A stretch of DNA of 64,000 nt from Candidatus Nanohaloarchaea archaeon (GCA_014297435.1 JACOQA010000001.1:32001-96000), one strand, 5' to 3'. Counted from the first letter of the stretch, positions 2,983 through 59,310 are shown. Notes: generated from the letters alone by a model not told the origin. Numbers and translations: made by a program.

Positions 2983-2988
2983 TGTGGA

Positions 2989-4485: not shown

Positions 4486-4526
4486 ATAATTAGTTCATCC
4501 TCCTTCAGCCTATAAAAAACCGTGTG

Positions 4527-6345: not shown

Positions 6346-6450
6346 TATTTGTTCACCTTTGCTCAGTTCGGTTAGTTCCGAGCATCAATAACCGGTCTTC
6401 TAAGCTTTAAATATGAACACTTTTTATTCAGGCCATCGGAAATACGGTTT

Positions 6451-7878: not shown

Positions 7879-7879
7879 T

Positions 7880-8539: not shown

Positions 8540-8573
8540 AAGAATTCTTAATCTTTCTCTCTAACTATCTTCC

Positions 8574-16434: not shown

Positions 16435-16461
16435 AAAATCGTTTTTCTGTAAGTCACCTTT

Positions 16462-19091: not shown

Positions 19092-19093
19092 TT

Positions 19094-19582
19094 TCAGTCC
19101 ACTTCATGACCCCAGTTCTCACATTCATCTTCTGAGGAGTCAGTAAGGTTTTCCTCGGGAGCGTCCTCACATACCTCACCCAGGCTTTCATTAATCGAAG
19201 AAGCTGTTATCTCCAGATCCGTCAGGTTTTCCTCCAGATTCGAGACCTCTGTCTCAAGATCGGACTTATCCGATTCCAGATCTGAAACCTCCGATTCAAG
19301 CTCGCCTACCCGTGAACGCAAGTTCTTAGTTTCAGATACGTATGTGTTTACATCCTCCCTTTTCTCGGAAAGCTCTTCTGTAAGATTCTGGTTCTCAGCT
19401 CTCAACTGGTTAACTTCACTTTTCTTTTCCTCTAATTGTTGATCAAGTCCCTGTTTCTCCGAGAGTATATCGCTTAACTGTCCCTGCCACAGAACTGATA
19501 GTCCTGCAAGCAAAGCAAGTATTAGTACTGTTGACGCAACTAGAAACGGGTTCAATCTTCTTTTTAGCATTGTGTCGCTCAT
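19094..19582 (-). CDS. Membrane-anchored coiled-coil protein
   Basis: N-terminal TM helix followed by heptads (VSDLESDKSDLETEVSNLEEN) and a C-terminal Cys pair. Confidence 0.75.
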   Translation of the reverse strand: MSDTMLKRRLNPFLVASTVLILALLAGLSVLWQGQLSDILSEKQGLDQQLEEKKSEVNQLRAENQNLTEELSEKREDVNTYVSETKNLRSRVGELESEVSDLESDKSDLETEVSNLEENLTDLEITASSINESLGEVCEDAPEENLTDSSEDECENWGHEVD

Positions 19583-21882
19583 TTTCTACCACTTCTCTTT
19601 CTGTAACCAACTTCGGAAAGGAAGACTAATAGAGCCGCGATAATGAAGTAGTCGCCAAGGTTCTTCTGTTTCTGTACCTTTCTGTCCGAGAAGCTCTTCA
19701 AGTCCTCCACTATAGATTGTTTCTCGTCGGGCGTATAAACGTTTCCTCCGGTGTTCTGAACCACATCCAAGTTATCCTTGTTTAGACCAACCTGCTTTAT
19801 CTCAGGATTATAGCTGTAAGCATAGACTTTTTCCTGGAAACTGTGGAATCCTGTTGTTTCGGGTTCGACCTCTGCCGAGTAAAGATCTTCGCCCTGTCTC
19901 TTCAATCCATCAACATCGTAAGATGCCTCAATTCTTACTTTTTCGTCGTTATAGCCGTCCTGAACTCTTATCCATTTTTCCTGCTTTCTCTGTGGCTGTC
20001 CTACAGCCCAGCTAACTGATCTGGTCGCCATCAAGGGGTCAGAGTTGAGTATTCTTGAGAGGTCCTTGTCTCCTGCGGAGAAAGCCGCGACACGACCCAA
20101 CCCATATCTCCAGGAGGTTAAAACAGGGCTTCCTGAACTAGATGTTGCGAGAAGGTCTGCACCACTCTTAGGCTTAACAGGATCAAAACCGGTAATCACT
20201 CCATTAGGGTTCAATCCTTCCGTAATCATGTGATCTGGATCGGTTACAACGATGCTTTCAGCTTCTTTTGAAGCCCCACCAGCTTTGAAACGGGTTGTCA
20301 ACCTGTTGTTGTTTTCGGAGCTGAAAGGCATGTACTGGTCGCCGGAACGAGTCAAACTTCTCAAGAAGTCGTCGTTGGGGTTTCCGGTACCTATAATCAG
20401 GAGTCTTGAATCCAGACTGTCAACAGCCCTCCGTGTCTTTGCCGGAATGTTCTCGTTTATCTCCTTCGGACTCAACTCTCCAGGAGTTATCCAGATAATG
20501 TTTCCTTCTCCCTCCATAACCCGGTCAGCGTACTTGAGACCGTAGTGGTGAGGTGCCCATCCACGGATAGAGTAGTCAGATTCAAGCTGGCTCTTCAATT
20601 TAGACCTATGAGTGGAGTCGAGGGCTTTAGGACTGCTGAACTTAACTAGTTGAGGTCCATCAAAGTTCCCTTTGTAAGCTACCGCACCCACCTTGTTGTT
20701 TGAAGGAAGACCAACAGGAGGTCGGTGAATCAGCGAGTAGGCAATTCTCAGCGCCTTCTGTGTCGAGTTCTGTGTGCTTATAGAGCCAGAGAAATCGTTT
20801 TCTTCCCTATTTTGCAGGTACTGTGATCCACAGAACTCTTGATTTGTGCAGTCGGATGAGGTGTGTGATATGTCAAACACGATCATGATCTTGGAGCCTT
20901 TAGACTCCTTAGCCTCTTCCGAGTATCTTGCTGGAAGAACCGAGTTCTGTTCCTCATAGTTGCCTGTATAAACTAATCCGTTTCCTTCAGCTAGGTATCC
21001 GCTGATCTCAGACTCATCGAACTGCTTTTTTGCGATAACGGCATAGTATTCGTCCATGTTCTCCGGGAAGCTCGAACGGTACTCGAGACTGTAAAATTTA
21101 TCGAGTTCATCCGACATACTGCCCTCGTTCCCTAAAACCAGTATATTCGGTTTTTCAACCACTTCAACGGTCTTATAGAACACGTTGTTCGACCCAAATT
21201 CATCTTCCGAATCTATAGAAGCCTTAATCCTATGCGATCCTTTCTCATCAAAGCTCCTTGTAAAACTCCATGTGCTGTTGTCAGCTCTTTCCAGATCGGT
21301 CTTATCGCCGTCTACTAACACTTCGGGTTTTTGAGGCATAGTTGTTGAGCTCACTTCCACGGTAAAACTGTTTTCTGCTCCAGGAACGGTAGAGCTTGGA
21401 CCTTGAACTGAAACTGCGGATTCTTCCTCGGAATCGGTTTTCAAAAGGTTTAGACTGGCGTTCTTCCGTCTTATTTCCCTAGCTGTATTTTCTAGCGATG
21501 AAGAGGATTGGAGATCGCTGACTAGGAGGTAGGCCTGGTTTTCCTTGATATTCCGTGTCAGACCACTTTTTAGGTCCGAGTTGTTGCCTGATGCTATAAT
21601 TTTACGATTAACTTTTACGTTCTCTAGGCTTAGATTCTCTTCCTCCATAACCGACATAGAGGTTGAAGAGTCCTCTAAGATTGTTAGTTGTGGTTGCTTG
21701 GAGATCTCTTCTTCGCCTGTCACGAATGGTGAAGCTGCGGCAACTGCCAGTAGAATAACTGTTATAGCTTTCGTGACTCCGACTATCTTCTTGAATCGTT
21801 CTTCTGCTTTAATTGTTGTAAAAAGCGCCGGCAGGGCTAATAGGCTTAAAGCAAGGAGTAACGGGTTTTGAATTCCTACCAT
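19579..21882 (-). CDS. VWA-domain membrane protein
   Basis: N-terminal TMs, MIDAS-like EDSSTSM and FDISHTS, WRYGLGRV motif, C-terminal TM. Confidence 0.8.
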   Translation of the reverse strand: MVGIQNPLLLALSLLALPALFTTIKAEERFKKIVGVTKAITVILLAVAAASPFVTGEEEISKQPQLTILEDSSTSMSVMEEENLSLENVKVNRKIIASGNNSDLKSGLTRNIKENQAYLLVSDLQSSSSLENTAREIRRKNASLNLLKTDSEEESAVSVQGPSSTVPGAENSFTVEVSSTTMPQKPEVLVDGDKTDLERADNSTWSFTRSFDEKGSHRIKASIDSEDEFGSNNVFYKTVEVVEKPNILVLGNEGSMSDELDKFYSLEYRSSFPENMDEYYAVIAKKQFDESEISGYLAEGNGLVYTGNYEEQNSVLPARYSEEAKESKGSKIMIVFDISHTSSDCTNQEFCGSQYLQNREENDFSGSISTQNSTQKALRIAYSLIHRPPVGLPSNNKVGAVAYKGNFDGPQLVKFSSPKALDSTHRSKLKSQLESDYSIRGWAPHHYGLKYADRVMEGEGNIIWITPGELSPKEINENIPAKTRRAVDSLDSRLLIIGTGNPNDDFLRSLTRSGDQYMPFSSENNNRLTTRFKAGGASKEAESIVVTDPDHMITEGLNPNGVITGFDPVKPKSGADLLATSSSGSPVLTSWRYGLGRVAAFSAGDKDLSRILNSDPLMATRSVSWAVGQPQRKQEKWIRVQDGYNDEKVRIEASYDVDGLKRQGEDLYSAEVEPETTGFHSFQEKVYAYSYNPEIKQVGLNKDNLDVVQNTGGNVYTPDEKQSIVEDLKSFSDRKVQKQKNLGDYFIIAALLVFLSEVGYRKRSGRK

Positions 21883-48290: not shown

Positions 48291-49022
48291 TTATCTGAAG
48301 TTCTGGACATCTATCTTCAGGAAGTCCGCGCCAGTAGGAAGCTGGTAAAGAACATCATACTTGAATCCATAATCGCTTGAAACCGTAGCCTTGATTCTCC
48401 CCGTACCTATGTATTCGCCGAGTTGTTCAGCCTCTGTGTATCCTGTTCCATAACTTGAGCTTGGCTCGGCATTAAGCTTAACGGTTATATTGCCATCAAG
48501 ATTCTTATTAGATCCTTCAGAGCTCTTGAACTCGTAAAGAACGACTAGTTTTGAGGTGTTTATGTTTTGAGGGGAGCCACTAGAACCAACATTCTTAATA
48601 CAAGCCTTAATATGATCATTTTTCATCAAATAACAGGGCGTGCCATCTATTGTGGTCTTATTCACCTTCACATTAGCCGAGGAGCTCAGGATTATGTTCC
48701 CATCTCTTTTCGAAGTTTGGGGGGATATCACGCTTGCGTCCGTACGAAGTTCGTAGATGAGAGATTCTGTATCATTGTTGAAGTATAGATCTCCTCTATC
48801 AAAGCTTACATCCATGGTTCTGGTCGAGCCTTCACCTTCTGAGACCACCTCTTGAACATTTGAGTCTACAGTCTGCATGAAGTTCTGGGCTTTCCTTATG
48901 GAGTTGGCATCCTGCATGTTTTCAAGTGCGGGAGCACCAACTGTAATCGCTCCAGAGATCGCAGTTACCGTAACGCCCACATAGATTGCCATGGTCGCGA
49001 TCTCCGAGACTCCTTTCGACAT
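48291..49022 (-). CDS. Class III signal peptide protein (minor pilin-like)
   Basis: MSKG|VSEIATMAIYVGVTVTAISGAITVGAP. Confidence 0.82.
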   Translation of the reverse strand: MSKGVSEIATMAIYVGVTVTAISGAITVGAPALENMQDANSIRKAQNFMQTVDSNVQEVVSEGEGSTRTMDVSFDRGDLYFNNDTESLIYELRTDASVISPQTSKRDGNIILSSSANVKVNKTTIDGTPCYLMKNDHIKACIKNVGSSGSPQNINTSKLVVLYEFKSSEGSNKNLDGNITVKLNAEPSSSYGTGYTEAEQLGEYIGTGRIKATVSSDYGFKYDVLYQLPTGADFLKIDVQNFR

Positions 49023-49052
49023 AATTAATTGTCATTTTTGCTGTCTTAAATA

Positions 49053-49601
49053 TTAATGGAGCTGACTGTTGATCCAGGTCTCCCCATTATCCCTCATGCG
49101 CGACCATACAAAGATACGGGGATTAGAGAAATTGAACGACTTGTCGATGTCCAGAGAGCTTGCAGTAACCCTTACGTTTGAAACTCCTTCTGGAAGACTA
49201 ATCTCTTTGGATTGTTTTGATTCAAGAGTTAGGTTCGACCATGAGCCATCCAGTTTCACTCCAGGTCGCAACAAAGATTCACCATAGTTTAAAATCATGG
49301 CTTTATCGGCATAGGGCAGCACGGCAAAATCAAATCCTCTATAGTCTATTCCTTTAGTACTGGTCTGTCTCTCTAGAAATCTATGCGTGTTGTAGATTTT
49401 TTTCTCCAAATAAATTACTGAACTATTTTTCTCAAGTCCGCTTCCAAAGGCTTTAGCTGGCTGATCAACCGAATTCGAGAAATAATTTTTGAAATAAGTT
49501 TTTTCTCCGCTTTCGACGAAGTTGCCGAATGAATATACGGTTAGAAGTATGAAGCTTGCAAAAACTATGGCTGAGAGTATGAATATCTGACCTTTCTTCA
49601 C
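49053..49601 (-). CDS. Class III signal peptide protein
   Basis: MKKG|QIFILSAIVFASFILL. Confidence 0.8.
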   Translation of the reverse strand: MKKGQIFILSAIVFASFILLTVYSFGNFVESGEKTYFKNYFSNSVDQPAKAFGSGLEKNSSVIYLEKKIYNTHRFLERQTSTKGIDYRGFDFAVLPYADKAMILNYGESLLRPGVKLDGSWSNLTLESKQSKEISLPEGVSNVRVTASSLDIDKSFNFSNPRIFVWSRMRDNGETWINSQLH

Positions 49602-50173
49602 CTGTAGCTCGCCACCCTTATTTCACGGCTTGAATTTTCAAAGTAGGGGAAGTTGACCGTGTAAACGTTTTCCCTACTAGGAATAGAACCTTCTGTCCAA
49701 TATCTGTTGAACGAAAGGGAAACTTCTCCGTTACCTGTAAGATTTAGCCACCCGTGTGTTGGTTCAGGGTTTTTAGAGTAATAGCCGGTTCTGCTAATAT
49801 TTTCCAAGATTTTCTGTCCGTTAAAGCTTAAATTAAGGTTTTCAGCGTTCTTTATCCATATCTGAATATCGGAATTATCAGAACTATCTAAATGGATCTG
49901 ATCTGGAGAATCTAGTTCGTAATAACTTGAATTCATATGAATAATAGACACTGAAGCATTGAAATTAGCAGGCAAGACTTCTTCAACGTCTTTTTCAATT
50001 TTCTGAGGTTTTAAGTCAAGCCTACCTCTTTCTTGAAGTGTTTCGAGTTTTTCTACCACGCCTGTCATTTCAAAGTCGGGCTGTTGGCTGGTCTGAGGCA
50101 GTACAACCAAGATCATGGTAAGTATGAGTGTTGAAGCTATAACTGCCTCTAAGGTATGTATGAAACCTTTCAC
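49598..50173 (-). CDS. Class III signal peptide protein
   Basis: MKG|FIHTLEAVIASTLILTMILVV. Confidence 0.8.
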   Translation of the reverse strand: MKGFIHTLEAVIASTLILTMILVVLPQTSQQPDFEMTGVVEKLETLQERGRLDLKPQKIEKDVEEVLPANFNASVSIIHMNSSYYELDSPDQIHLDSSDNSDIQIWIKNAENLNLSFNGQKILENISRTGYYSKNPEPTHGWLNLTGNGEVSLSFNRYWTEGSIPSRENVYTVNFPYFENSSREIRVASYR

Positions 50174-51336
50174 CAGACATTCAACCTCATTTCTAGGTCT
50201 GTCAGGCTTCCGTTTCTGTAGAAACCGGTCAAGAATTTTTGTCTTGAAACGACTTCTTGTAATGGTGTCGGATAGCCCATTGAAGCTAATTTGCCCGAAT
50301 TATCGGAAATAGAAAGATTAAAGTTTTCTGGACTTATATCAAGTGCTTCTTCCAAATCTTGATTCGACTTATTGTTTAAGTTCTTAATTTTATCGACGGA
50401 AACAGTAGAAAAGCTTTCCAAAGGTCCAAAAACTATTCTTCCTTGTTTATAGGAGTTAATTCTTTTTTTACCGTAAGAATGGTCTTTGTCATGAAGCCTT
50501 ATCCTGAGGCGCTCTGAGTCTATTTCGGCTAATACAGTTGAGCTATCTGGTTTTGAAACCTTGGCATTTAGTTTTCCAATGAAGCTAATTCCATAATTGG
50601 AAGCGACAGTAAATCCTGAGGTTTTTCCATCCTTGAATAAACCTGTTCCAGCTAGTTCTGTTGTAGAATCATCTTTCGCCCAGTAGAGTTTTGACATGTT
50701 TTTCAATCTGAAAGATAAACCTGAAGCGTTCTCGATTATAATTTCCTTGGAGTTATTATAGATCTTTAAGCCGGCGTCTTCCAGCTCTGCATGCAAAAGA
50801 TTGTTCTTGATGTCAAAAGTTCCTATGCCGAGGTCGGCAGATGAAGAAAGAACTTCTTTACCGTTTATTCTCATCGATTCCAGTCCGTTTCCACCAGTCA
50901 TTACTGAAATAAATGAGTTGTTCATCCAATCGTTGATCTCGATATCGCTATAGAGATCTCCTGTCAGGTTTTCTGCATAAAGATTTATCTCTCTCGTACT
51001 GTCCGTTTTGTCTAATATCATTATGGTTCTGTTCTCGTGTAGCTCTGCTGCTTGTTCTTTGAGGCTTGCGTTTCTGTAATAATTGTTGAAGAAATGTCTG
51101 CGATCTACGGGTACGTTAGAAATTGAATTTGGAGATTCCATTATTAGGGATTTTCGACCAATCGGGCTGGAAGTTTCTGATATTAGTTGGTTGGATGTTT
51201 CAAGAGCGATGTTTTCCAGGTTCCCTGTGTTTCCTCCGGTCTGGTAACTAGATAGAAAAATAATGCTTGAGAGGAGTGTAACTATCATCAGACCGAGTCC
51301 TATTGACCAGTCGATGTTTACCGTTTGTCCTTTCAA
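50170..51336 (-). CDS. Class III signal peptide protein
   Basis: MKG|QTVNIDWSIGLGLMIVTLL; TTG start overlaps the upstream stop. Confidence 0.8.
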   Translation of the reverse strand: MKGQTVNIDWSIGLGLMIVTLLSSIIFLSSYQTGGNTGNLENIALETSNQLISETSSPIGRKSLIMESPNSISNVPVDRRHFFNNYYRNASLKEQAAELHENRTIMILDKTDSTREINLYAENLTGDLYSDIEINDWMNNSFISVMTGGNGLESMRINGKEVLSSSADLGIGTFDIKNNLLHAELEDAGLKIYNNSKEIIIENASGLSFRLKNMSKLYWAKDDSTTELAGTGLFKDGKTSGFTVASNYGISFIGKLNAKVSKPDSSTVLAEIDSERLRIRLHDKDHSYGKKRINSYKQGRIVFGPLESFSTVSVDKIKNLNNKSNQDLEEALDISPENFNLSISDNSGKLASMGYPTPLQEVVSRQKFLTGFYRNGSLTDLEMRLNVW

Positions 51337-52244
51337 TTAATATTCACCTTGTCTGAACCAGTTTTCTCGATGGAAATCGAGTATCTTCCGGATGATAGGT
51401 CCAGATTGGAGGTAATACCGGTTTCAGGTCGATAAATTACTCTAACCAGAGGATTGGTGTATATAGTAAAACCAAAGTTCGGCTTTAGTTTGTTGAGAAG
51501 ATTTCTATTGTTTATGAGCTGCTTTCTATTATTGATGGTGCTGTAACTGCCTTCTGTGAAAGGCAGGATGAAATTTGCCTGGTTATAACTTCTTGTAAGT
51601 CTCAAAACATTGTCTTTACGTATTTTTCGCTCAGCTTTCAAGAAGCTTGGAGCAACTATTCCGGAAATATAGTTTTCTGAATCTGAAACTAAGTAAGGGA
51701 AGTCTGCTGGAGGCATAATACTTTTTTCTGATGAGAGTTGTTGGCTGTCAAAATAGGTTGTGTCGGAAGAGCTCAGATTAAAATTCATCTCCAAAGTTAC
51801 ATTTTCAGGGCTTTGGTAGCTCCCACAAATCTTTGTATCGAAAACTGAAGGTTTAGAAACGTGTGCATTATCTTTCGATGAAACGGAGAAAAGAACGGTT
51901 GAGTTGGATGGACAAGATCCTTTTGAGGTGGTTGTCGCCATCCTGCCAGTACATACGTTCAGATTATACGAATCGAAGACCGAGAAATGTGCTTTCTCTT
52001 CACGTGATGAAAGATAGAATCCGGTATTAGCGTCGCACGATGTACCTATACTTGAGTCTTCTATTCCAGAAATACAGACGTTATTCGAGAAAAAATCAGG
52101 TTCTGCAGGGTGGCTATAGGCTTCACTACTGTCAAAAGAGATAACAGGTTCATAGTTTCCGCAGTCCTCGGCGTACTTCACGTCCAATGCCGCAGAGCTG
52201 GGAAGCAGAAGGCAGACAGCTAGTAAAATTTTATACATTTTCAT
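51333..52244 (-). CDS. Secreted protein with three C..S..H..C repeats
   Basis: Signal peptide MKMYKILLAVCLLLPSSAA; three Cys-closed repeats; paralog of the next gene. Confidence 0.75.
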   Translation of the reverse strand: MKMYKILLAVCLLLPSSAALDVKYAEDCGNYEPVISFDSSEAYSHPAEPDFFSNNVCISGIEDSSIGTSCDANTGFYLSSREEKAHFSVFDSYNLNVCTGRMATTTSKGSCPSNSTVLFSVSSKDNAHVSKPSVFDTKICGSYQSPENVTLEMNFNLSSSDTTYFDSQQLSSEKSIMPPADFPYLVSDSENYISGIVAPSFLKAERKIRKDNVLRLTRSYNQANFILPFTEGSYSTINNRKQLINNRNLLNKLKPNFGFTIYTNPLVRVIYRPETGITSNLDLSSGRYSISIEKTGSDKVNIN

Positions 52245-52426
52245 AAGTAGAAAATTTGTCTTTTCTCCGTTATTAAACCTATACGACCTCATCAGTTCAA
52301 TGACGTTAGGGAAAGATGGCGGGAATACCTCAAGTTATCTAGTTAAACTCTGAACTGTCGAACTAGTTCACACCTTTAAAATTCATAACATAGGAGAAAA
52401 TCGGTTTTAGGCAAGTTCAATCAAAT

Positions 52427-53344
52427 CTAATTAGGATTAATTTTGATAGCAACCTCTGAATTCCGAAGTCCGCTGTTTCCTATTCTGAGACTTCCACGTT
52501 CTCTTATCGTTTCTGTGTTTTCTAAGGTCGTATTAGGTCTATAAATGACTTTTACGAGAGGCAATTTGTTTAAAACATCTCCAAAGCTAGGTTCTACTTG
52601 ATTCATTAATATTCTGTCGTTTATCTCCTTCTGTCGTTCTTCGATATCACTTCTTCCACCATTTGAGAAAGGGACTAGGAAGGTTGACCTATCTTGTAAG
52701 GTCATAGAGATCGTTTCAGTCTCTGGATAAGAGAGTTTTAGGAATTCTCCATATCCGACAATTCCCAGAGGCTGCTCAGAAGTGATGTAGGGATATTCGA
52801 CCGGCGCTTTCAGCTCCTCTCCTGTCGAGATATTTGAATCGCTTGCAGAGATTTTCCCTGAAACTCCTTCAACCTCTAAGGTAACGTTTTCCGGTATTTT
52901 GCTCGTTACGCACAGACTTTGATCGTAGGCGTCATTTTCGAACTGTGGTGAGGCGGCATGCGTGTTGGTCTCCCCTGTGACGGAGAGAGCTTTCGTTCCG
53001 TTCGTGCAACCGGGTTCTATCGATGCTTGAAGCCTTCCTGAGCATAAACTGTACGTATAATGGTTTTCAAATATGCTTAAATGGGAATTTGTCTTGTTTT
53101 CGAGAGAGAAGAGCGGTTCATTGTCTGAGCCACATGACAGACCGATCTCAATCTTGTCGGCGCCTTCAACGCATAACTGGTTCGGGTAATAACCTGGTTC
53201 AGCTACATGCCCTCCATCAGTCTTATTCAGAGATAAGAGGCTTTCAGTTCCGCTTTTACAGCTGTTTTCGACTGAGACATCTATCGCCGAAACGCTGTGA
53301 GTTAGAGCCAATATTAGCCCTAACAAAATATATTTTCTCTTCAC
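52427..53344 (-). CDS. Secreted protein with three C..S..H..C repeats
   Basis: Signal peptide MKRKYILLGLILALTHSVSA; shares PENVTLE, YPY/FPY and PF motifs with 51333-52244. Confidence 0.78.
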   Translation of the reverse strand: MKRKYILLGLILALTHSVSAIDVSVENSCKSGTESLLSLNKTDGGHVAEPGYYPNQLCVEGADKIEIGLSCGSDNEPLFSLENKTNSHLSIFENHYTYSLCSGRLQASIEPGCTNGTKALSVTGETNTHAASPQFENDAYDQSLCVTSKIPENVTLEVEGVSGKISASDSNISTGEELKAPVEYPYITSEQPLGIVGYGEFLKLSYPETETISMTLQDRSTFLVPFSNGGRSDIEERQKEINDRILMNQVEPSFGDVLNKLPLVKVIYRPNTTLENTETIRERGSLRIGNSGLRNSEVAIKINPN

Positions 53345-53411
53345 GTTAACCCTATTGTCTTAAGTCGAATAAAAGATCAACTTTATATCCCATTGATTCT
53401 CAGTCTTTGAT

Positions 53412-53996
53412 ATGGGTTTAGCAAGAGTCGGAGTCATTTCAATATTTGTAATATTTTTGGCTGCTTTTGTGACTGCACCAACTGTACAGCACCATCCTTT
53501 CTCCGAGCTCTTTCCGCCTGACCAGGATTTAAATTTCGGTGAATACGATGCATTCAACTTGACAGAGCTTGATTTGTCTGACGGTTCAATTTTTACAGGT
53601 AATGTGGTAAGAAACCAGGGGAACACTATCGATATAATACGCTTTATTGACAGCGGTCTTATAGAGATTCCTAACGGGGGTATTGAAGTTTCTGGCTCCA
53701 GTAAGTTCCAAAATAACGTTGAGTTTAGAAGCTCCGGTGACACTGTAAAACTGAACGGCACTGGAGGAAACCATACATACATGGAGTTTTACAAAGAATC
53801 CTCAAATCCTGGGGTGAGATCTGCTTGGGTCGGCTATGGAAGTGCTTCACGATCCGCATTCACTATCAAGAATGAACTCGGAGATAAGATCGAACTCAAG
53901 GGAGGAAAGGTTGAAGCCGCGGGAGGAGTAGACCTAAAGGGCAACAATTTAACTTCTTCCACCGGAGGTGAGATTTGTGTCGGAAGATACTGTTGA
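53412..53996 (+). CDS. Secreted or membrane-anchored protein with a tail-fibre-like domain
   Basis: N-terminal hydrophobic helix; NHTYMEFY...RSAWVGYGS...FTIKNE; GGVDLKGNNL; C-terminal EICVGRYC. Confidence 0.65.
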   Translation: MGLARVGVISIFVIFLAAFVTAPTVQHHPFSELFPPDQDLNFGEYDAFNLTELDLSDGSIFTGNVVRNQGNTIDIIRFIDSGLIEIPNGGIEVSGSSKFQNNVEFRSSGDTVKLNGTGGNHTYMEFYKESSNPGVRSAWVGYGSASRSAFTIKNELGDKIELKGGKVEAAGGVDLKGNNLTSSTGGEICVGRYC

Positions 53997-55167
53997 AATA
54001 AAGAAAGAAGAACTTGAAGAACTAATAGAGAAAAAGGTGGAGGAAAGAGTAGAGGAGCGTGTTAGAGAAGAAATTGAGGATGAGCCTCAGAAAAATGATG
54101 TAGATGAGGGAATATCCCGTAGAGGCTTCTTGAAGAAGCTTGGGGCAGGAGCTTTAGGTTTTGGAGCTATTTCTCTGCCTTCTGTTTCTGCACTTGATAT
54201 CAGAAGTGACGGTCTAAGTTATTATGGAGGTCAAAACAGTAATCTAGATTTCGATATTGATAACTCGGGTAATGTAAATCTATTAGGTTCCTTGAGTCTT
54301 GGAGGCAATCTGAAGGCTAAGGATGGAGAATTGATTTGGGATGAAGCTAAATCGCAGATTCCGTCTTCTGTAGTTGATCTGTCTGGAATCAACCATGATA
54401 ATTTATCCGGTGTTTCCGCTGATGACCACCACCCTGATCCAAGGTATGGCATAAGAAATTTAGAGCTTCAGAACACTGAGATGGATGATTCTTGGGTTTC
54501 CGGACAGTCTGGAGGACAGATTGGGTGGGATGCCTCAGTAGGGTTCTTTGTCCACTACGGCAGTTCTGGCGGTGGTGTTGGGAAAGGTTACGGAACCCTC
54601 TTAGATACAAGCAATCTACAGTTAGGCTCCAACCTGTATTTTAGTGGAGGAGAGTCTGAAGATGTAAGACCCTCTTTAGCAATTGATCAAGGTTCGGGTA
54701 GTGGTCTAGATGCAGATACAATTGACGGCAAACATGCTTCAGAATTAGGGGGGGAATTCAGGTTTGGACACGGTCTCAGAGCTAGAGGCTCATTTAGTGG
54801 GAACACGAATGCTCCTTCGGACAGTGTACAAACTTTGACTCAACCCCATAGATCTTTCTCTGGGGCTGTAAATGCAAAAATAGAGTTGGAAGCTAATGGC
54901 TCACAAAGCGGAACCGCAAGTGCAGATGCAGGAATAGAGGCAACTTTGCAAACTTCTGGAGGTGCAACAATACTCGCTGGAAACACTACAGCTACGGGTA
55001 ACGAGTTCTCATCTACGTTTAAGCAAACCCAAACAAATATTAATTTGACTCCAAATGATGAAATTACGGCCCGGGTCCATGTAACGAATGTTGCTGACGT
55101 ATATGCATCTAAAGATGCCCAGGCGACTGCGAGTGCAAATGGTACTGCTTCATTATGGGTTGAATAA
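53977..55167 (+). CDS. Twin-arginine signal protein with phage tail-fibre-like motifs
   Basis: GTG after GGAGGTGA SD; SRRGFLKKLGAGALGFGAISLPSVSA Tat signal; INHDNLSGVSADDHH and GSGSGLDADTIDGKHASEL motifs. Confidence 0.75.
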   Translation: MSEDTVEIKKEELEELIEKKVEERVEERVREEIEDEPQKNDVDEGISRRGFLKKLGAGALGFGAISLPSVSALDIRSDGLSYYGGQNSNLDFDIDNSGNVNLLGSLSLGGNLKAKDGELIWDEAKSQIPSSVVDLSGINHDNLSGVSADDHHPDPRYGIRNLELQNTEMDDSWVSGQSGGQIGWDASVGFFVHYGSSGGGVGKGYGTLLDTSNLQLGSNLYFSGGESEDVRPSLAIDQGSGSGLDADTIDGKHASELGGEFRFGHGLRARGSFSGNTNAPSDSVQTLTQPHRSFSGAVNAKIELEANGSQSGTASADAGIEATLQTSGGATILAGNTTATGNEFSSTFKQTQTNINLTPNDEITARVHVTNVADVYASKDAQATASANGTASLWVE

Positions 55168-55178
55168 AGGTGGGAAAA

Positions 55179-55610
55179 ATGCGAGAGATAAACGATAAGA
55201 TTTTCCATTTTATATCAGGGGAAAGTGTGCAAAATGGGGATATAGAGAGGAATTTGAATGATGAAGGTCAGGACGTTTTGGATCGTCTGTACAGGGGAGG
55301 TCATATGATGGCTGTAAGAGATGGTTCAAACCTCAACAGTATTTGGAATTACAGCTTGGTGAGCGGCGATTTGGAGCTGAAGACGGTTTGGTACAGGCCT
55401 GAAACCAGAGGGGGCTACGGGAAGTGGGATGAGCTTTATATCTTGATGGAGCATGAAAACGTAAGCCTGATTAAATCAGAAACTCCTACAGCCGAGTTTG
55501 CAGATAAACTTGTGTCTAGAGGTGGAGATGATAAATTCTTCAGGAGAATAGGGAAAAAGAAGGTTAAAATAAGGAAAGAAGATCTAGAGGAGGATGTCGA
55601 CATTGCATAG
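55179..55610 (+). CDS. Hypothetical protein
   Basis: ORF directly after the Tat fibre gene; ATG at 55179 after AGGTGG. Confidence 0.6.
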   Translation: MREINDKIFHFISGESVQNGDIERNLNDEGQDVLDRLYRGGHMMAVRDGSNLNSIWNYSLVSGDLELKTVWYRPETRGGYGKWDELYILMEHENVSLIKSETPTAEFADKLVSRGGDDKFFRRIGKKKVKIRKEDLEEDVDIA

Positions 55611-55893
55611 GTTTGAGTCAGAAGTATCGAATAAAATGATTGAGAAAGATGACTTTTTCGCGACAAGATTTGAAATTACGGAGATTGACGAACAGTTTGA
55701 TGAAGCCTATTTTTCAATAGTCTGTAATTCATGTAATCTGGCAGATAATAAGATATTTTTGAGATCTCCGCCTCATACATTGAGGATTACTTGTGATTAT
55801 TGCGGGCAGGCTCATAGAATTCATTTCGAATCATATGACAAGTTTATAGATTATATCAAGTCTGAAACAAGCGTTAGTGTTCACGAAAATTAA
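55594..55893 (+). CDS. Small Zn-ribbon protein
   Basis: CNSC...CDYC; GAGGAGG SD. Confidence 0.6.
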   Translation: MSTLHRFESEVSNKMIEKDDFFATRFEITEIDEQFDEAYFSIVCNSCNLADNKIFLRSPPHTLRITCDYCGQAHRIHFESYDKFIDYIKSETSVSVHEN

Positions 55894-55950
55894 TGCAAAT
55901 CTTTGAGGGGCAAAGTATACAAAGTCTTACAATAAATTGTATTGATACCA

Positions 55951-57297
55951 ATGTCTACTGATGTAGTTGTATTTATAGACGCTCTATCTCCGAGAGAGCT
56001 GGAAGGCTTTTTGGAGGAGAATTATCAGGGAAATATGGATGCCGATGTACCCCGTGTAACACCAAGAGTTATGTCAAGTATATATACCGGATTAAGTCCG
56101 GCGGAAAACGGTATGATGTCTATATCCAAAGAGGGTGGAGAAGATGCTACAAGACCCAAGAAGTCCACTTTTATTGATCAGGCTGTAAGGGAGGGAAAGA
56201 AGGTTTTGTCCATGGGAATGCCTTTCAGCGTACCGTTCAAAATTGATTCTGTAGAGGCAGAAGAATTTGAATCTCTACTTCAGGGAGGTGCACTTCAGGG
56301 AGAATCATATACGTTACCTGGACAAGCTTCAGATATATTGAATGTTCCTGCGCCATCCGCTGACATGATTAAGGACCACCCTGATACAACTTATTCAAGT
56401 TTTCTGGATCAGACAAGACAGTTTTTCCTGAGAGCTAAAGAGAATATAAGGAGAGATGATTTCGACGTAGTCTTTCTTGGTTATCGGCTTGTAGACTCTT
56501 ATTGCCACTTTCAGCATACAGAGGAGCGAAATGGGAAGCCTTACAGGCAGCATCTTATTGATAATGTTCAATCGCTTTTGAAGGAGATAGATAATCAGAT
56601 TGACGGCGACTTAATGTTTTTCTCTGATCACGGTCAGACCGAGTTAACAGATACATTCAGGGTAAACAAATGGTTGAAAGAAAATGGCTGGCTGGATTAC
56701 AGAGTTGATTACGACTTTATAGATGATTTAACCAAGTATCAGCAGGGTGAAAAACACCCTGTAAATGAAAGGGTTGAAAACCAGGTAACTTTGAATCAGC
56801 CGGGTGTGAGGTTGGATGAAGAGAACTCGAAAGTTGTATGCTCAGATCCTTTTGACTCATGCTTAACTTTGCTATGTGATAGAGAAGATTTTGATGAAGA
56901 GAAGTTTAGAGAGGAGTTAATGTCGACAGGGATGTATCGTTCCGTCAAGTACAAGTGGGAAATTTACGACGAGGACGCTGACTTTTACGAGACAGTTCCC
57001 GATATAATTCCCGATAGAGCCGAAGGGGTATTTGTCTCCGGCAACCTACACAAGAATCCGATCGGAATGGGGTACTACAGAACCGGTGTACACGACAGAA
57101 CTGCGTGTTTCGGCGCCACCAAAAAGTTGAATATCTCTGATAAGGAAGAAATTAAGCCAGAGGACATGTATGATGTAATAACTGATTTCATTGATCTAGA
57201 GTTGACCGAGCCGCCTTTAGACGAGCAAGATATCAATGGCTGGAACGATGAAGAGGTAAAGCTTGCAAGAAAGAGACTGGAGGGAAATAAGGAATGA
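55951..57297 (+). CDS. Alkaline phosphatase superfamily protein (type I phosphodiesterase/nucleotide pyrophosphatase-like)
   Basis: VVFIDAL, TPRVMSSIYTG, DSYCH, FSDHG, FRVNKWLKENGWL, TGVHD. Confidence 0.85.
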   Translation: MSTDVVVFIDALSPRELEGFLEENYQGNMDADVPRVTPRVMSSIYTGLSPAENGMMSISKEGGEDATRPKKSTFIDQAVREGKKVLSMGMPFSVPFKIDSVEAEEFESLLQGGALQGESYTLPGQASDILNVPAPSADMIKDHPDTTYSSFLDQTRQFFLRAKENIRRDDFDVVFLGYRLVDSYCHFQHTEERNGKPYRQHLIDNVQSLLKEIDNQIDGDLMFFSDHGQTELTDTFRVNKWLKENGWLDYRVDYDFIDDLTKYQQGEKHPVNERVENQVTLNQPGVRLDEENSKVVCSDPFDSCLTLLCDREDFDEEKFREELMSTGMYRSVKYKWEIYDEDADFYETVPDIIPDRAEGVFVSGNLHKNPIGMGYYRTGVHDRTACFGATKKLNISDKEEIKPEDMYDVITDFIDLELTEPPLDEQDINGWNDEEVKLARKRLEGNKE

Positions 57298-58232
57298 CCT
57301 GGAATGGAAGAGCCAGCTGGAGGAATGCCAAACCTATTGGAGGATCACAGACTCAAAAAGTAGGAGAAGCAGTTTCTGCCTTAGAAAAAGCCATTGAGGA
57401 AAATGAGAAGGTACTATTCCTTTGGACGGGTGGTAAGGAGGCACAGGTTATTGCAGATTTACTGCTTTATGAGGTCGGTGAAGAAGATGGTGTTTCCCCT
57501 GTACCTTTTGGGGTTATCGATACTGGCAACCAGTTCGAAAGTATGTATGATTTTAGAGAGGAGTTCTTGGCTGCCGATGGCGACAAAGGAGCTAACACTG
57601 TTGGACCGTTCGAGGGTATAGGAAATAAGGTTATAGTTGAGAGACATGACGAGTTTTTGGAGAAAATAATTGAGAATGAAAATGATCCTCGCGGATATCA
57701 TGGAAAACACTCCGGAGAATGGAAATGTCCTGAATGCCGGCAGAAAGCCAAAAGAGATAACACTACTATTATCTGCGAGGGTTGCGGTGAAACAAAACTT
57801 GAATCTGTACAAAGACAGAATCTTTCGCCCGAAGAATGGGGTGTTCCTGAATCGTGTGGCGCACTAAAGGTCGAGCCATTGAAACGTTTCGTTAAAGATC
57901 ATGGTTTCACTACCATGATTACGGGCATTCGAGGTACTGATATGATCGAACAGGGTGACTCCGATTCTAGAATTTTTGAGGAAAAAAACGAACCCGCAAA
58001 TTATTCACGGATTAACCCGTTGATTAATTGGAGTGAGGAGAATGTGTGGGCTTACATTAAAGCTGAATCTGTTTCATATCCGGAGCTTTATGACCAGGGT
58101 TACAGGCATACTGATTCGAAGTGCTGTACATCTAAGGAAGATCGTGGTGGCGCGGATGAATACGGTGAGGGCGGCATAGATGCCGAAAAGGCTGCAGCTA
58201 AGAAAGATCTTCAGGACATGGGGTACGTATAA
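57294..58232 (+). CDS. PAPS reductase / CysD-family protein with Zn-ribbon insertion
   Basis: WTGGKEA (PP-loop variant), IDTG, LKVEPL, ITGIRG, RINPLINW, LYDQGYR; CPEC/CEGC insert; C-terminal LQDMGYV. Confidence 0.85.
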   Translation: MTWNGRASWRNAKPIGGSQTQKVGEAVSALEKAIEENEKVLFLWTGGKEAQVIADLLLYEVGEEDGVSPVPFGVIDTGNQFESMYDFREEFLAADGDKGANTVGPFEGIGNKVIVERHDEFLEKIIENENDPRGYHGKHSGEWKCPECRQKAKRDNTTIICEGCGETKLESVQRQNLSPEEWGVPESCGALKVEPLKRFVKDHGFTTMITGIRGTDMIEQGDSDSRIFEEKNEPANYSRINPLINWSEENVWAYIKAESVSYPELYDQGYRHTDSKCCTSKEDRGGADEYGEGGIDAEKAAAKKDLQDMGYV

Positions 58233-58380
58233 TTGTTCAATCTGAGTTAATATAGTGGACTCAAATTTTTGCAGATAATTAGTTTAATCCTTCTGAGAAA
58301 TTGACGCGCAATCAACAGTAAGCTGGTTGCATTGGTTCCTGTGGCAAAGTTATATAGGTTCGATTCCCTTACAATCAACT

Positions 58381-58617
58381 ATGGTATTAAGTCCAGGTTT
58401 AGGAGAGATCGTATTGATCGGAGCTGCGGTACTATTCCTCATAATGGGTCCTAAAAAGCTTCCTCAGTTTGCCAGATCTTTAGGTGAATCAAAGAAAGAG
58501 TTCAAGAAGTCTATGAACGAGGCACAGGAAGTAGTTGATGAAGCCGAAGAAGTAGGAGAGGAAATGAGACCTGATGCAGAATCTGAAGTAGAGGATATAA
58601 AGTCTTCAAGTGAATGA
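58381..58617 (+). CDS. tatA: Twin-arginine translocase TatA
   Basis: GLGEIVLIG...MGPKKLPQFARSLGESKKEFKK; ATG at 58381. Confidence 0.93.
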   Translation: MVLSPGLGEIVLIGAAVLFLIMGPKKLPQFARSLGESKKEFKKSMNEAQEVVDEAEEVGEEMRPDAESEVEDIKSSSE

Positions 58618-58623
58618 TCGGGG

Positions 58624-59310
58624 ATGCAGCAGTTAGAAGATCATGTAATAGAGCTTAGAAGGCGGCTAATACGTATATCAATATCTCTAGTAATAGCCAC
58701 TGCTTTATCCTTCTATTTCTCGCCTGACATACTTATCTGGCTTCAAAATGATCTTTCAGTAGAGGTACACGCTTTGAAAGCGTTCGAAACTTTCTACACT
58801 GAGTTGATGATAGCCTTGATTCTTGGATTCTTCATAAGTCTTCCATACACGATTTACCAGATAATCAAGTTCATGAAGCCAGGGCTTAAAGAAAGAGAAT
58901 ACAAGGTTATGAGAAACTATCTTCCTTTCTCAATAATACTGTTTCTCGGCGGAGCGGTTTTCGCATACGAATTTGTTATTAAGGCAAGTTTTGCCTTCTT
59001 TGAAGGAGTAGGTCAATCTGCCGGCGTAACCTCGGTATGGGGTCTAAAAAACACTCTAGGTTTTGCGATGAAGATTTCAGGATTTACAGGGGTATTTTTC
59101 CAGTTACCTATAGTTTCAGTAGTTCTCGCTAGGGCAGGAATACTTGAATCCGAGATGATGGTCAAGTACAGGAACTATTTCATTGTGGCTGTGCTTCTAT
59201 TCTCAGCCATGGCAACTCCTCCGGATTTGATTACGCAGATTCTGATAACCTTGCCTGTCATAGGACTCTATCAAGTCAGTATCTTCTTGGTGGGAAAGAT
59301 TCAGAACTGA
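58624..59310 (+). CDS. tatC: Twin-arginine translocase TatC
   Basis: LEDHVIELRRRL, FMKPGLKERE, FQLP, TPPD, LYQVS. Confidence 0.95.
   Translation: MQQLEDHVIELRRRLIRISISLVIATALSFYFSPDILIWLQNDLSVEVHALKAFETFYTELMIALILGFFISLPYTIYQIIKFMKPGLKEREYKVMRNYLPFSIILFLGGAVFAYEFVIKASFAFFEGVGQSAGVTSVWGLKNTLGFAMKISGFTGVFFQLPIVSVVLARAGILESEMMVKYRNYFIVAVLLFSAMATPPDLITQILITLPVIGLYQVSIFLVGKIQN

What the first reader, a model, noticed from the sequence alone, without database searches (positions are those of the whole stretch)
53412..59310. Candidate system: domesticated viral tail-fibre adhesins exported by an adjacent Tat translocase
Seen: two consecutive genes with export signals carry motifs I recognise from phage tail fibres. 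53412 has HTYMEFY..RSAWVGYGS..FTIKNE and a terminal ICVGRYC. 53977 has HDNLSGVSADDHH, GSGSGLDADTIDGKHASEL and a beta-rich tip. The 53977 protein has a textbook twin-arginine signal (SRRGFLK..VSA) after an unusual ~45-aa acidic, coiled-coil-like N-region. Two small ORFs, two enzymes and then tatA-tatC follow on the same strand. No capsid, terminase or integrase is in the window, and the module is divergent from the second pilin cluster. Known: virion fibres lack signal peptides and fold as trimers in the cytoplasm; Tat exports folded proteins; nanohaloarchaea attach to haloarchaeal hosts. Inference: virus-derived receptor-binding fibres were recruited as host-recognition adhesins, pre-folded (55179 a possible chaperone) and exported via Tat.
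Basis: partly seen in the sequence, partly recalled or inferred. Interest (0 to 1): 0.85.

Follow-up and report, generated by a model that had tools for sequence, protein, structure and literature searches.

The report
Tat-linked tail-fibre-like archaeal surface proteins
A tiny salt-loving symbiotic archaeon encodes secreted proteins built like virus tail fibres, carrying an unusual export tag and sitting beside the export machine they probably use, which makes them good candidates for how such cells grip their hosts.

Summary
The sequence features are real. Window 53977-55167 encodes a 396-aa protein with a twin-arginine signal (TIGR01409 above cut-off). The signal follows a ~45-aa acidic amphipathic helix. 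This helix-plus-Tat leader is conserved in 100 of 158 fetched relatives. Residues 160-257 are 57% identical to the 2773-aa tail protein of Salinibacter phage M8CC-19. The mature part is predicted to form an intertwined homotrimer (score 0.68, best control 0.00).

The leader family is found in 27 of 70 genomes of the phylum. TatC is found in only 20 of 70, and 17 of those 20 carry the family. In 12 of the 20 a family gene lies within 5 kb of tatC, against 0.96 expected. The flanking genes are housekeeping, and no terminase or HK97 capsid was found.

The upstream 194-aa gene belongs to a second, Sec-type family that repeatedly precedes the Tat-type gene, but no viral homology was found for it. 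The proposed chaperone (55170) is not conserved.

Best reading: a mosaic family of Tat-exported trimeric surface fibres. An adhesin or host-recognition role is inferred, not shown.

The parts
48291..51336 (-). Four pilin-like genes with class-III-type N-termini (48291-49022, 49053-49601, 49598-50173, 50170-51336)
   Evidence: PF23960 DUF7289 scores 32.5 bits, above its cut-off. PF23959 DUF7288 scores 20.3 bits, below its cut-off. N-termini were read. The same block precedes the fibre genes in G064 and G062.
51333..53344 (-). Two paralogous Cys-rich secreted proteins (319 aa and 305 aa), transcribed divergently from the fibre gene pair
   Evidence: The two are 30% identical to each other and have no Pfam or NCBIfam family. 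A homologue lies divergent from an A2-type gene in L024, L025, L026 and in L072 and L074.
53382..53388 (+). TATA-like TTTATAT about 27 nt upstream of ATG 53412. It may be the promoter of a leaderless transcript.
   Evidence: Read from the sequence. This is inference only.
53412..53996 (+). A2-type gene, 194 aa. It has a Sec-like signal, a conserved mature N-domain (QHHPFSELFPPDQDLNFG...), an ~82-aa insert and a C-terminal KGNNLTSS..GGEICVGRYC.
   Evidence: The profile is found in 30 of 70 genomes, also at the N-terminus of ORFs of 1000-2700 aa. No phage or PHROG match.
53964..53971 (+). GGAGGTGA ribosome-binding-like site, 5 nt before GTG 53977 and inside the end of the A2 gene. This suggests translational coupling.
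   Evidence: Read. The database copy of the protein also starts at 53977 (P0001, 396 aa).
53977..54111 (+). Acidic amphipathic N-region of the A1 protein (residues 1-45, core LEELIEKKVEERV)
   Evidence: Conserved hydrophobic pattern h..hh...h...h in an alignment of 100 leaders. AF2 predicts a helix at residues 10-34. In the 100 leaders the N-region has a median length of 47.5 aa and a median net charge of -5.
54112..54192 (+). Twin-arginine signal proper (residues 46-72: ISRRGFLKK, Gly/Ala-rich h-region, VSA). The likely cleavage site is before L73.
   Evidence: TIGR01409 scores 20.4 bits against a cut-off of 16.7. R48, R49 and F51 are invariant in 100 sequences. The cleavage site is inferred.
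54193..54453 (+). Conserved mature N-terminal segment (LDIRSDGLSYYGG...) and the HDNLSGVSADDHH stretch
   Evidence: Conserved in alignments A1 and A3 and in the leader alignment. The lowest-error trimer contacts lie at residues 100-135.
54454..54747 (+). Virus-tail-fibre-like shaft module (residues 160-257, ending in GSGSGLDADTIDGKHASEL)
   Evidence: 56 of 98 residues (57%) are identical to the Salinibacter phage M8CC-19 gp26 'tail protein'. The module is 42% identical over 178 aligned positions to P0022, whose C-terminus matches PHROG tail-fibre families at 3e-31.
54748..55167 (+). Beta-rich C-terminal tip (residues 258-396) with no detectable relatives
   Evidence: No best-scoring stretch among the 150 HMMER hits listed reaches past query residue 348. 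AF2 predicts beta strands at residues 284-395. The syntenic gene of the same-genus genome matches only residues 1-111 or 6-158.
55170..55893 (+). Two small ORFs (146 aa, 99 aa) with no family and no conservation. They are probably not part of the system.
   Evidence: No counterpart in 15 related loci.
55942..58232 (+). Phosphodiesterase-like and PAPS-reductase-domain genes lying between the fibre genes and tatA. They are absent at this place in the same-genus genome.
   Evidence: They are absent from the stretch of G064 that was compared (L025), where tatA follows the fibre genes directly. The same pair precedes tatAC in G049:C54.
58327..58617 (+). tatA. The Pfam match starts at residue 24, so the true start is probably the ATG near 58381.
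   Evidence: PF02416 1.2e-12. TIGR01411 6e-12, which is below its cut-off.
58624..59310 (+). tatC
   Evidence: PF00902 1.2e-56. TIGR00945 scores 178 bits against a cut-off of 132.7.

Best explanation
Window 53412-55167 holds one gene pair from two mosaic families of secreted fibre-type proteins of nanohaloarchaea.

The 396-aa protein ('A1 type') has five parts:
- a conserved acidic amphipathic helix;
- a twin-arginine signal;
- a conserved mature N-terminal segment;
- a shaft module homologous to virus tail fibres;
- an orphan beta-rich tip.

Proposed mechanism (inferred): the protein folds and trimerises in the salty cytoplasm and is exported folded by the neighbouring TatA/TatC. It loses the whole 72-residue leader at VSA|L. 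It is then held at the cell surface by its conserved N-terminal segment. It may be docked there to the Sec-exported partner ('A2 type', the 194-aa gene) encoded just upstream and overlapping it. The variable tip points outward and binds a ligand, most plausibly on the haloarchaeal host.

Shown here: the signal, the conservation of the leader, the viral homology of residues 160-257, the recurrent tatAC linkage, the recurrent A2-then-A1 order, and the non-proviral context.

Predicted only: the trimer.

Inferred: export by Tat, cleavage, surface retention, adhesion, and the job of the acidic helix (a trimerisation or export-proofreading handle).
For: (1) Tat signal. TIGR01409 scores above its cut-off at residues 46-70. 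tatA and tatC lie 3.2-3.5 kb downstream on the same strand.

(2) The acidic N-region is translated and selected.
- There is no in-frame ATG, GTG or TTG start between about 54036 and the RR codons.
- GGAGGTGA lies 5 nt before GTG 53977.
- 104 of 158 fetched proteins have [ST]RRx[FLVI][LIVM] in their first 160 residues, and 100 of them have at least 30 residues before it.
- 71 of those 100 have the hxxhhxxxh core.
- The information content of the helix positions is close to that of the h-region.

(3) Family size. The HMMER search gave 362 representatives at E<=1e-3. The profile is found in 27 of 70 genomes of the phylum, with up to 31 matches on 13 contigs in one same-genus genome.

(4) Viral likeness.
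- Residues 160-257 are 57% identical to a Salinibacter phage tail protein.
- Of ten relatives scanned against PHROGs, seven matched a family annotated as tail. Strong tail-fibre matches came for four leaderless relatives (P0022, P0120, P0040, P0107) and for the leader-bearing P0005.
- P0005 ends in a tail-collar fibre domain (phrog_1800 1.4e-34).
- 25 of 100 leader proteins carry the xDADxxDG motif.

(5) Trimer. Three copies of residues 75-396 gave a median score of 0.68 against a best control of 0.00. The mark was reached by 21 of 30 proteins solved as pairs of one chain and by 0 of 23 solved as single chains. The runs agree in at least 84% of contacts and the partner pLDDT is at least 64. 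Contacts run along residues 75-290. The calibration used two copies, not three.

(6) Linkage.
- tatC is in 20 of 70 genomes, and 17 of those 20 have the family.
- 12 of the 20 have a family match within 5 kb of tatC, against 0.96 expected under uniform placement.
- The family gene lies upstream of tatAC in some genomes and downstream in others.

(7) The A2-then-A1 order recurs in G000:C11, G064:C2, G064:C1 and G027:C24.

(8) Not viral.
- The flanks are thermosome, GatD/E, RNase J and GluRS.
- There is no Terminase_6N, no HK97 capsid and no reverse transcriptase in the genome.
- None of 48 pattern matches in IMG/VR encodes a leader relative.

(9) Tip replacement. The syntenic gene in the same genus matches only residues 1-111 or 6-158, while RNase J is 96% and GluRS 88% identical.
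Against: - 10 of the 27 genomes with the family have no tatC match, including genomes rated 97%, 92% and 90% complete. Either tatC was missed or export does not need it.
- The 70 genomes are relatives, so the Fisher and placement figures overstate independence.
- The own genome holds about six other possible RR-signal proteins, so tatAC is not dedicated to this family.
- In this window four unrelated genes separate the fibre genes from tatA.
- Viral homology covers only about 100 of 396 residues. The whole protein reaches only E=0.0013 against one PHROG and has no PDB relative by sequence.
- The AF2 monomer models are poor (pLDDT 36.9 and 33.2).
- The trimer comes from a single-sequence predictor and may partly reflect memory of solved phage fibres.
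- The A2 protein has no demonstrable viral relative.
- No binding, expression or localisation data were obtained.
Confidence: 0.6

Rival explanations
1. The proteins are Tat-secreted but are not host adhesins. They may serve another extracellular job: envelope or S-layer-associated structure, polysaccharide binding or degradation, or nutrient capture. Their fibre-like modules would then be generic beta-rich scaffolds.
For: Among 100 leader-bearing proteins the passenger domains are heterogeneous: right-handed beta-helix in 4, Gly_rich_2 in 2, and Laminin_G_3, SGL and PQQ/WD40 propellers in 1 each. Most have no family at all. No binding data exist. Passages read in PMC7443923 show that the haloarchaeal host's secreted enzymes carry Tat signals.
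Against: The architecture is a conserved N-end with swapped tips in many copies per roughly 1-Mb genome. It includes tail-collar and tail-fibre tips and a predicted intertwined trimer. This is the pattern of receptor-binding fibres rather than enzymes. No catalytic family was found in the window's protein.
Confidence: 0.2
2. The Tat-type signal is not cleaved. The Gly/Ala-rich h-region acts as an N-in membrane anchor, so the fibre stays tethered. The acidic helix stays in the cytoplasm as a functional tail, for example for clustering or signalling.
For: The acidic helix is as conserved as the signal core, which is unexpected for a peptide that is discarded. The window's protein has no C-terminal anchor. 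No dedicated signal peptidase gene was seen among the ten neighbouring proteins scanned.
Against: A small-x-small site (VSA, ASA) followed by a conserved mature start (L-D/N-I/V-R-S) is common in the family. A loose pattern for it matched 54 of 100. The h-region is short and Gly/Ala-rich, as in cleaved Tat signals. This second point rests on general knowledge of Tat signals, not on a test.
Confidence: 0.15
3. The closeness to tatAC is hitch-hiking. Both sit in one fast-evolving surface-gene island next to RNase J, and the fibres have no special relation to Tat beyond being ordinary substrates.
For: tatA-tatC sits directly upstream of RNase J in 6 of 35 named loci and in the window. The whole island, with pilin-like genes, A2, A1, TatA and TatC, is 53-72% identical between two same-genus genomes, while RNase J is 96%. 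Other candidate Tat substrates exist.
Against: The linkage persists where tatAC is not beside RNase J (G047, G059, G027, G057, G049) and with the order reversed. 12 were observed against 0.96 expected. The phyletic overlap is 17 of 20.
Confidence: 0.12
4. The genes are structural genes of a virus or a decayed provirus of the nanohaloarchaeon.
For: There is a shared module with a phage tail protein. Atlas neighbours are mostly viral clusters, all below the 0.9 mark. Short motif matches occur in three IMG/VR contigs.
Against: The proteins carry export signals. Housekeeping genes lie on both sides. The genome has no Terminase_6N or HK97 capsid and the window has no integrase. Copies are scattered over 13 contigs in one genome. 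No leader relative was found in IMG/VR.
Confidence: 0.04

Closest known systems
Mosaic adhesive trimer (MAT) fibres of Bdellovibrio bacteriovorus (PMC10769870; abstract and passages read)
   Same: A cellular, multi-copy family (21 in B. bacteriovorus) of phage-fibre-like intertwined trimers. A signal peptide is followed by a conserved N-terminal domain and swapped adhesive tips. A small cell that must recognise another cell uses them.
   Different: MAT fibres are bacterial. The passages read mention a signal peptide, a conserved ~130-aa N-domain and often an S74 chaperone-protease end. Here the organism is an archaeon and the signal is twin-arginine behind a conserved acidic helix. No S74 domain was found in the window's protein, the genes are linked to tatAC, and homology to the MAT N-domain was not tested. 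It works alike; membership is not claimed.
Virion tail fibres and receptor-binding proteins, e.g. the gp26 'tail protein' of Salinibacter phage M8CC-19 (NC_042349.1)
   Same: Residues 160-257 are 57% identical. The GSGSGLDADTxDG motif is shared, and the protein is predicted to be an intertwined trimer.
   Different: It has an export signal and no virion module around it. At 396 aa it is far shorter than the 2773-aa phage protein. Its tip is an orphan.
Tat-fimbriae ('tafi') of Haloarcula hispanica (PMC11821415; summary and passages read)
   Same: An archaeal surface filament system of a hypersaline organism whose subunits carry twin-arginine signals. Some relatives share only the N-terminal ~40 residues. 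One tip protein has a laminin-G-like domain.
   Different: Per the passages read, tafi subunits are modelled as linear polymers joined by donor-strand exchange. Mature TafA starts at Phe-30, so the leader is short, and the cluster has its own signal peptidase, TafD. Here the fibre is a predicted intertwined trimer and the RR pair sits at residues 48-49 behind an acidic helix. No signal peptidase gene was seen among the ten neighbours scanned. No sequence comparison with Taf proteins was made.
Long Tat leaders that bind dedicated chaperones (for example TorA with TorD, or hydrogenase small subunits). These are recalled; no call was made.
   Same: A conserved extension of the signal peptide ahead of the RR motif. 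This suggests a docking site that holds export back until assembly is complete.
   Different: Those substrates are cofactor enzymes of bacteria. No chaperone candidate is conserved near these genes.
SPEARE proteins and giant surface proteins of nanohaloarchaea (mentioned in PMC9765267 and PMC10266531; passages read)
   Same: Both are proposed attachment proteins of the same phylum.
   Different: As described in those passages, they are very long Sec-type proteins with protease, adhesion and nuclease domains or Ig/WD40 domains. They are not short Tat-type trimeric fibres.

Membership tests
Twin-arginine (Tat) substrates | S/T-R-R-x-F-L-K motif recognised by a curated signal model | tested here: met
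   ISRRGFLKK. TIGR01409 scores 20.4 bits against a cut-off of 16.7 at residues 46-70. R48, R49 and F51 are invariant in 100 relatives.
Twin-arginine (Tat) substrates | Weakly hydrophobic h-region followed by a small-x-small cleavage site | tested here: met
   LGAGALGFGAISLPSVSA was read. A loose cleavage-site pattern matched 54 of 100 relatives. This was by inspection; no predictor was available.
Twin-arginine (Tat) substrates | RR motif near the N-terminus (within about the first 35 residues; the TatFind rule as I recall it, from no call) | tested here: not met
   RR lies at residues 48-49. The median N-region of 100 relatives is 47.5 aa.
Twin-arginine (Tat) substrates | TatA and TatC encoded in the genome | tested here: met
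Twin-arginine (Tat) substrates | Export abolished by RR-to-KK substitution or by loss of tatC | not testable with these tools
   Needs an experiment.
Virion tail fibre / receptor-binding protein | Sequence homology to annotated tail-fibre proteins | tested here: met
   Met for residues 160-257 only. The whole protein reaches only E=0.0013 against phrog_7389.
Virion tail fibre / receptor-binding protein | Intertwined homotrimer | tested here: inconclusive
   Predicted only. Score 0.68 against a best control of 0.00; the mark was reached by 21 of 30 proteins solved as pairs of one chain and by 0 of 23 solved as single chains; the calibration used two copies, not three. The monomer models were poor.
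Virion tail fibre / receptor-binding protein | Encoded within a virion structural module (capsid, terminase, tail genes) | tested here: not met
   Housekeeping flanks. No Terminase_6N or HK97 capsid in the genome and no integrase in the window.
Virion tail fibre / receptor-binding protein | No secretion signal (assembled in the cytoplasm) | tested here: not met
   A Tat signal is present.
Bdellovibrio MAT family | Signal peptide, conserved N-terminal domain and variable tips, in many copies | tested here: met
   The architecture is met. This shows likeness of design only.
Bdellovibrio MAT family | Homology to the MAT N-terminal domain | not tested
   No MAT sequence was fetched.
Tat-fimbriae (tafi) | Dedicated signal peptidase I (TafD) in the cluster | tested here: not met
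   No peptidase family was found among the ten proteins of 51333-59310 scanned.
Tat-fimbriae (tafi) | TafA-like subunits joined by donor-strand exchange | not tested
   No Taf sequence was compared. The trimer model points to a different assembly.

The most novel reading that the evidence does not exclude
Nanohaloarchaea that keep a Tat translocase do so largely to export this family. tatAC and the fibre genes would form one fast-evolving 'fibre-export island' whose swapped tips set which haloarchaeal hosts a lineage can attach to. The conserved acidic amphipathic helix ahead of the RR motif would be a new kind of Tat-leader element: a trimerisation or proofreading handle that lets only assembled trimers through. 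Because RR then lies beyond the usual search range of Tat predictors, this secretome would have been overlooked.
Probability: 0.27. Interest if true: 0.85.

Novelty: new variant of a known kind. Interest (0 to 1): 0.7.

Why it matters
How DPANN episymbionts recognise and hold their hosts is an open question. This result gives a concrete, testable gene family with the design of receptor-binding fibres: a conserved base, swapped tips and many copies in a genome of about 1 Mb.

It also offers a reason for the patchy presence of Tat in the phylum. One paper reads that patchiness as salt adaptation (PMC9765267, passages) and another calls the system 'likely inactive' (PMC10266531, passages).

It defines an extended Tat leader that could inform how folded oligomers are checked before export. 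Full-text searches found no paper describing this family, its leader or its linkage to tatAC. The supplements of those papers could not be seen.

Tried and rejected
- **AF2 monomer models.** Both proteins, folded with shallow alignments of 6 and 4 rows, gave pLDDT 36.9 and 33.2. I therefore ran no fold search, because matches to such models are meaningless.
- **PDB sequence searches.** None for A1 at E<=1. For the A2 profile, one chance-level hit at E=0.095.
- **A2 against phages.** No tblastn match at E<=0.01 and no PHROG family.
- **Atlas searches.** All feature scores were 0.83-0.88 and all TM-by-query values were below 0.5. These are leads only.
- **Word-index homology searches.** They found few relatives: 8, 4 and 4. 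The exhaustive HMMER search was needed.
- **Chaperone idea for ORF 55170.** It has no family and no counterpart in related loci. No other conserved neighbour emerged as a chaperone candidate.
- **Diversity-generating retroelement idea.** No RVT_1 in the genome.
- **'Tat dedicated to this family'.** Rejected, because other RR candidates exist.
- **Leader relatives in IMG/VR.** 48 pattern matches, 0 confirmed.
- **Leader relatives in genome contigs.** The pattern [IVM]SRRGFLKK gave 156 matches, of which 9 were confirmed, all 9 in records titled Nanohaloarchaea. The pattern is narrow, so this does not prove restriction to the phylum.
- **Sequencing runs.** None was listed and no RNA holder was listed.
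- **The search of earlier findings.** It was closed.
- **Paper supplements.** They were not consulted. Table S4 of PMC9765267 (TatC distribution) may bear on the co-occurrence counts.
- **Overlap of loci.** The loci probably overlap genomes already seen under G handles, so searches are not independent counts.

Full report
**What is there.** The window is G000:C1:32001-96000 of a 0.999-Mb genome in 15 contigs, rated 99% complete. Its RNase J has its closest relatives (95% to 68% identity) in records titled Nanohaloarchaea, Nanosalina, Nanohalobium and the like. One row carries a title of a different organism.

All ORFs and strings quoted in the finding are present. Gene 53412-53996 encodes 194 aa. 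Gene 53977-55167 encodes 396 aa and overlaps the end of the first gene. GGAGGTGA sits five bases before its GTG start. The database copy of the protein also starts there (P0001).

Downstream on the same strand lie two small ORFs without family, a phosphodiesterase-like gene, a PAPS-reductase-domain gene, tatA and tatC. After these come RNase J and GluRS. Upstream and divergent lie two Cys-rich secreted paralogues and four pilin-like genes, then GatD, GatE and the thermosome.

**The Tat-type protein ('A1').** Residues 46-70 match the curated twin-arginine signal model above its cut-off (20.4 against 16.7 bits). The RR pair lies at residues 48-49, behind 45 mostly acidic residues.

This is not an ORF-extension artefact. 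There is no in-frame ATG, GTG or TTG start close to RR. The same arrangement is conserved in relatives:
- 104 of 158 fetched proteins have the RR motif in their first 160 residues.
- 100 of them have at least 30 residues before it. The median N-region is 47.5 aa and the median net charge is -5.
- An alignment of the 100 leaders shows a core LEELIEKKVEERV with hydrophobic positions spaced h..hh...h...h. Its information content is similar to that of the signal's h-region.
- 71 of the 100 match a loose pattern for this core.
- AF2 predicts a helix at residues 10-34.

After the probable cleavage site (VSA|L) the mature start (LDIRSDGLSYYGG) is conserved too.

**Likeness to virus fibres.** A tblastn search with residues 140-275 against 50,697 phage records gave 5 records, all Salinibacter phages. 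The best is 57% identical. The match lies inside the 2773-aa gp26 'tail protein' of phage M8CC-19.

I scanned ten relatives against PHROGs, nine of them without a leader. Seven of the ten matched a family annotated as tail. Two of the other three matched only families of unknown function, and one matched none. P0022, P0120, P0040 and P0107 match many tail-fibre families. P0022 shares the module at 42% identity over 178 aligned positions.

P0005, a family member with the full leader, ends in a tail-collar fibre domain (phrog_1800 1.4e-34; Pfam Collar and Gp10_C score below their cut-offs).

The window's own protein reaches only E=0.0013 against one tail-fibre PHROG. It has no Pfam family. Its last ~50 residues match nothing: no best-scoring stretch among the 150 hits listed reaches past residue 348. 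So only the shaft module is demonstrably shared with viruses.

**Trimer.** The AF2 monomer models were poor. Three copies of residues 75-396 gave a median score of 0.68 against 0.00 for the best of three controls. By the tool's calibration the mark was reached by 21 of 30 proteins solved as pairs of one chain and by 0 of 23 solved as single chains. The runs agreed in at least 84% of contacts, and the partner pLDDT was at least 64. That calibration used two copies, not three.

Contacts run almost continuously from residue 75 to about 290, with few in the tip. That is the pattern of an intertwined fibre shaft with a separate head. This is a prediction, and it may lean on solved phage fibres.

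**A large mosaic family linked to tatAC.** The HMMER search of 1.84 billion representatives gave 362 proteins at E<=1e-3. Most match only the first ~100 residues, and their lengths range from 92 to about 700 aa. Within the phylum set of 70 genomes the profile is found in 27, with 31 matches on 13 contigs in one same-genus genome.

Passenger domains among 100 leader proteins are diverse and mostly unknown. Tail-fibre or tail PHROGs occur in 1-3 members each (two families of unknown function in 4-6), right-handed beta-helix in 4 and Gly_rich_2 in 2. 25 of the 100 carry the xDADxxDG motif.

TatC is present in only 20 of the 70 genomes. This agrees with passages of PMC9765267 reporting patchy TatC in the phylum. 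The overlap with the family is as follows:

| | family present | family absent |
|---|---|---|
| tatC present | 17 | 3 |
| tatC absent | 10 | 40 |

In 12 of the 20 tatC genomes a family match lies within 5 kb of tatC. Uniform placement would give 0.96.

The arrangement differs between genomes. The family gene lies before tatA in G000, G051, G059 and G065, directly after tatC in G047, G068 and G069, and on both sides in G064. This argues for maintained linkage rather than one inherited accident. The genomes are kin, however, and the statistics overstate independence. In the same-genus genome the stretch compared (L025) lacks the four genes that separate the fibre genes from tatA in this window.

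**The Sec-type partner ('A2').** The 194-aa protein has a short charged start, a hydrophobic stretch and a small-x-small site before a conserved mature N-domain. It ends in KGNNLTSS..GGEICVGRYC.

Its profile is found in 30 of 70 genomes. Its N-domain also heads ORFs of 1000-2700 aa. An A2-type gene directly precedes an A1-type gene in G000:C1, G000:C11, G064:C2, G064:C1 and G027:C24, and lies close upstream in a few more. The A2 C-terminal motif also occurs inside two A1-type ORFs of G063, so modules move between the two families.

I found no viral relative for A2. The Atlas neighbours are mostly viral fibre clusters, but all scores are below the level that counts.

**Context and rivals.** Nothing suggests a provirus:
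- The flanks are housekeeping genes.
- Terminase_6N, HK97 capsid and reverse transcriptase have no match in the genome.
- The five integrase matches lie elsewhere.
- No leader relative was confirmed among 48 pattern matches in IMG/VR.

The ORF at 55170 proposed as a chaperone has no family and no counterpart in related loci. The own genome has about six other possible RR-signal proteins, three of them with long N-regions, so tatAC is not dedicated to the family. Ten genomes have the family but no detected tatC, among them genomes rated 97%, 92% and 90% complete. This is the main result against an obligatory link.

**Mechanism and standing.** The reading I favour (confidence 0.6) is a mosaic family of trimeric, tail-fibre-like surface proteins. 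They would fold in the cytoplasm, leave through TatAC, lose the long leader and display a variable tip.

Export, cleavage, surface retention and adhesion are all inferred. The role of the acidic helix as a trimerisation or proofreading handle is a hypothesis.

The closest known designs are these:
- the MAT fibres of Bdellovibrio (PMC10769870, abstract and passages);
- virion receptor-binding fibres;
- the Tat-fimbriae of Haloarcula (PMC11821415, summary and passages).

It fails the defining features of a virion fibre, because it has a signal and no virion module. It was not compared by sequence with MAT or Taf proteins. I therefore file it as a new variant of a known kind.

Five full-text searches found no description of this family. 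Passages of PMC10266531 even call the Tat system of two cultivated nanohaloarchaea 'likely inactive'. Supplements were not available.

Noticed in passing
L024 (G000:C11:30001-50000): There is a second and larger cluster on another contig. It holds four A2-type genes (2460-3011, 8222-8569, 16123-16638, 18840-19904) and an A1-type paralogue (8570-9250). It also holds glycine-rich-domain proteins: one of 1402 aa with FN3 repeats (3972-8180) and one of 320 aa (PF12810 6.8e-7). There are two paralogous 243-aa proteins of no family, archaeal pilin-like genes, and a 385-aa protein with a thrice-repeated G[ST]LW[VI]E...H[WF]...G motif.
   Followed up: partly
L024 9262-10224; L026 6575-8818; L030 9213-9935; L033 12960-13862: A glycine-rich-domain gene recurs next to A1-type or A2-type genes in 4 genomes. 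Gly_rich_2 is also fused to the leader in 2 of 100 family members.
   Followed up: partly
window 51333-53344 (-): Two Cys-rich secreted paralogues carry a repeated C...E..LFSL....(S)H...Y...(L)C unit and have no known family. A homologue lies divergent from an A2-type gene in at least five loci.
   Followed up: partly
window 58624-59310: TatC passes the general tatC model (TIGR00945, 178 bits against a cut-off of 132.7) but not the archaeal TatC model (TIGR01912, 124.5 bits against 192.6). It is only 61% identical between two same-genus genomes whose RNase J is 96% identical. This may point to horizontal movement or fast evolution of the translocase.
   Followed up: no
G000: C8 (-) near 125342 and 127083; C1 (+) near 156665: Other ORFs have an RR motif followed by a Gly/Ala-rich hydrophobic stretch, placed 46-91 residues into the stop-to-stop frame (start codons not set). 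The preceding stretch is acidic in at least the C8:125342 ORF and lacks the family's amphipathic core. Long N-regions may be a general trait of Tat signals in this organism.
   Followed up: no
L025 (G064:C2) 11480-11791, 12288-12569: Short ORFs of 94-104 aa hold only the leader part of the family, directly after tatC. They may be gene fragments or recombination remnants.
   Followed up: no
L038 (G049:C54) 4789-8670: The phosphodiesterase-like and PAPS-reductase-domain pair (79-82% and 68% identical to the window's) also precedes tatA-tatC in a genome of a different genus. It is absent from the stretch of the same-genus genome that was compared.
   Followed up: no
L064: One public record with a typical nanohaloarchaeal RNase J-GluRS locus (70% identity) is titled as a MAG of a marine bacterium. 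The title looks inconsistent with the content.
   Followed up: no
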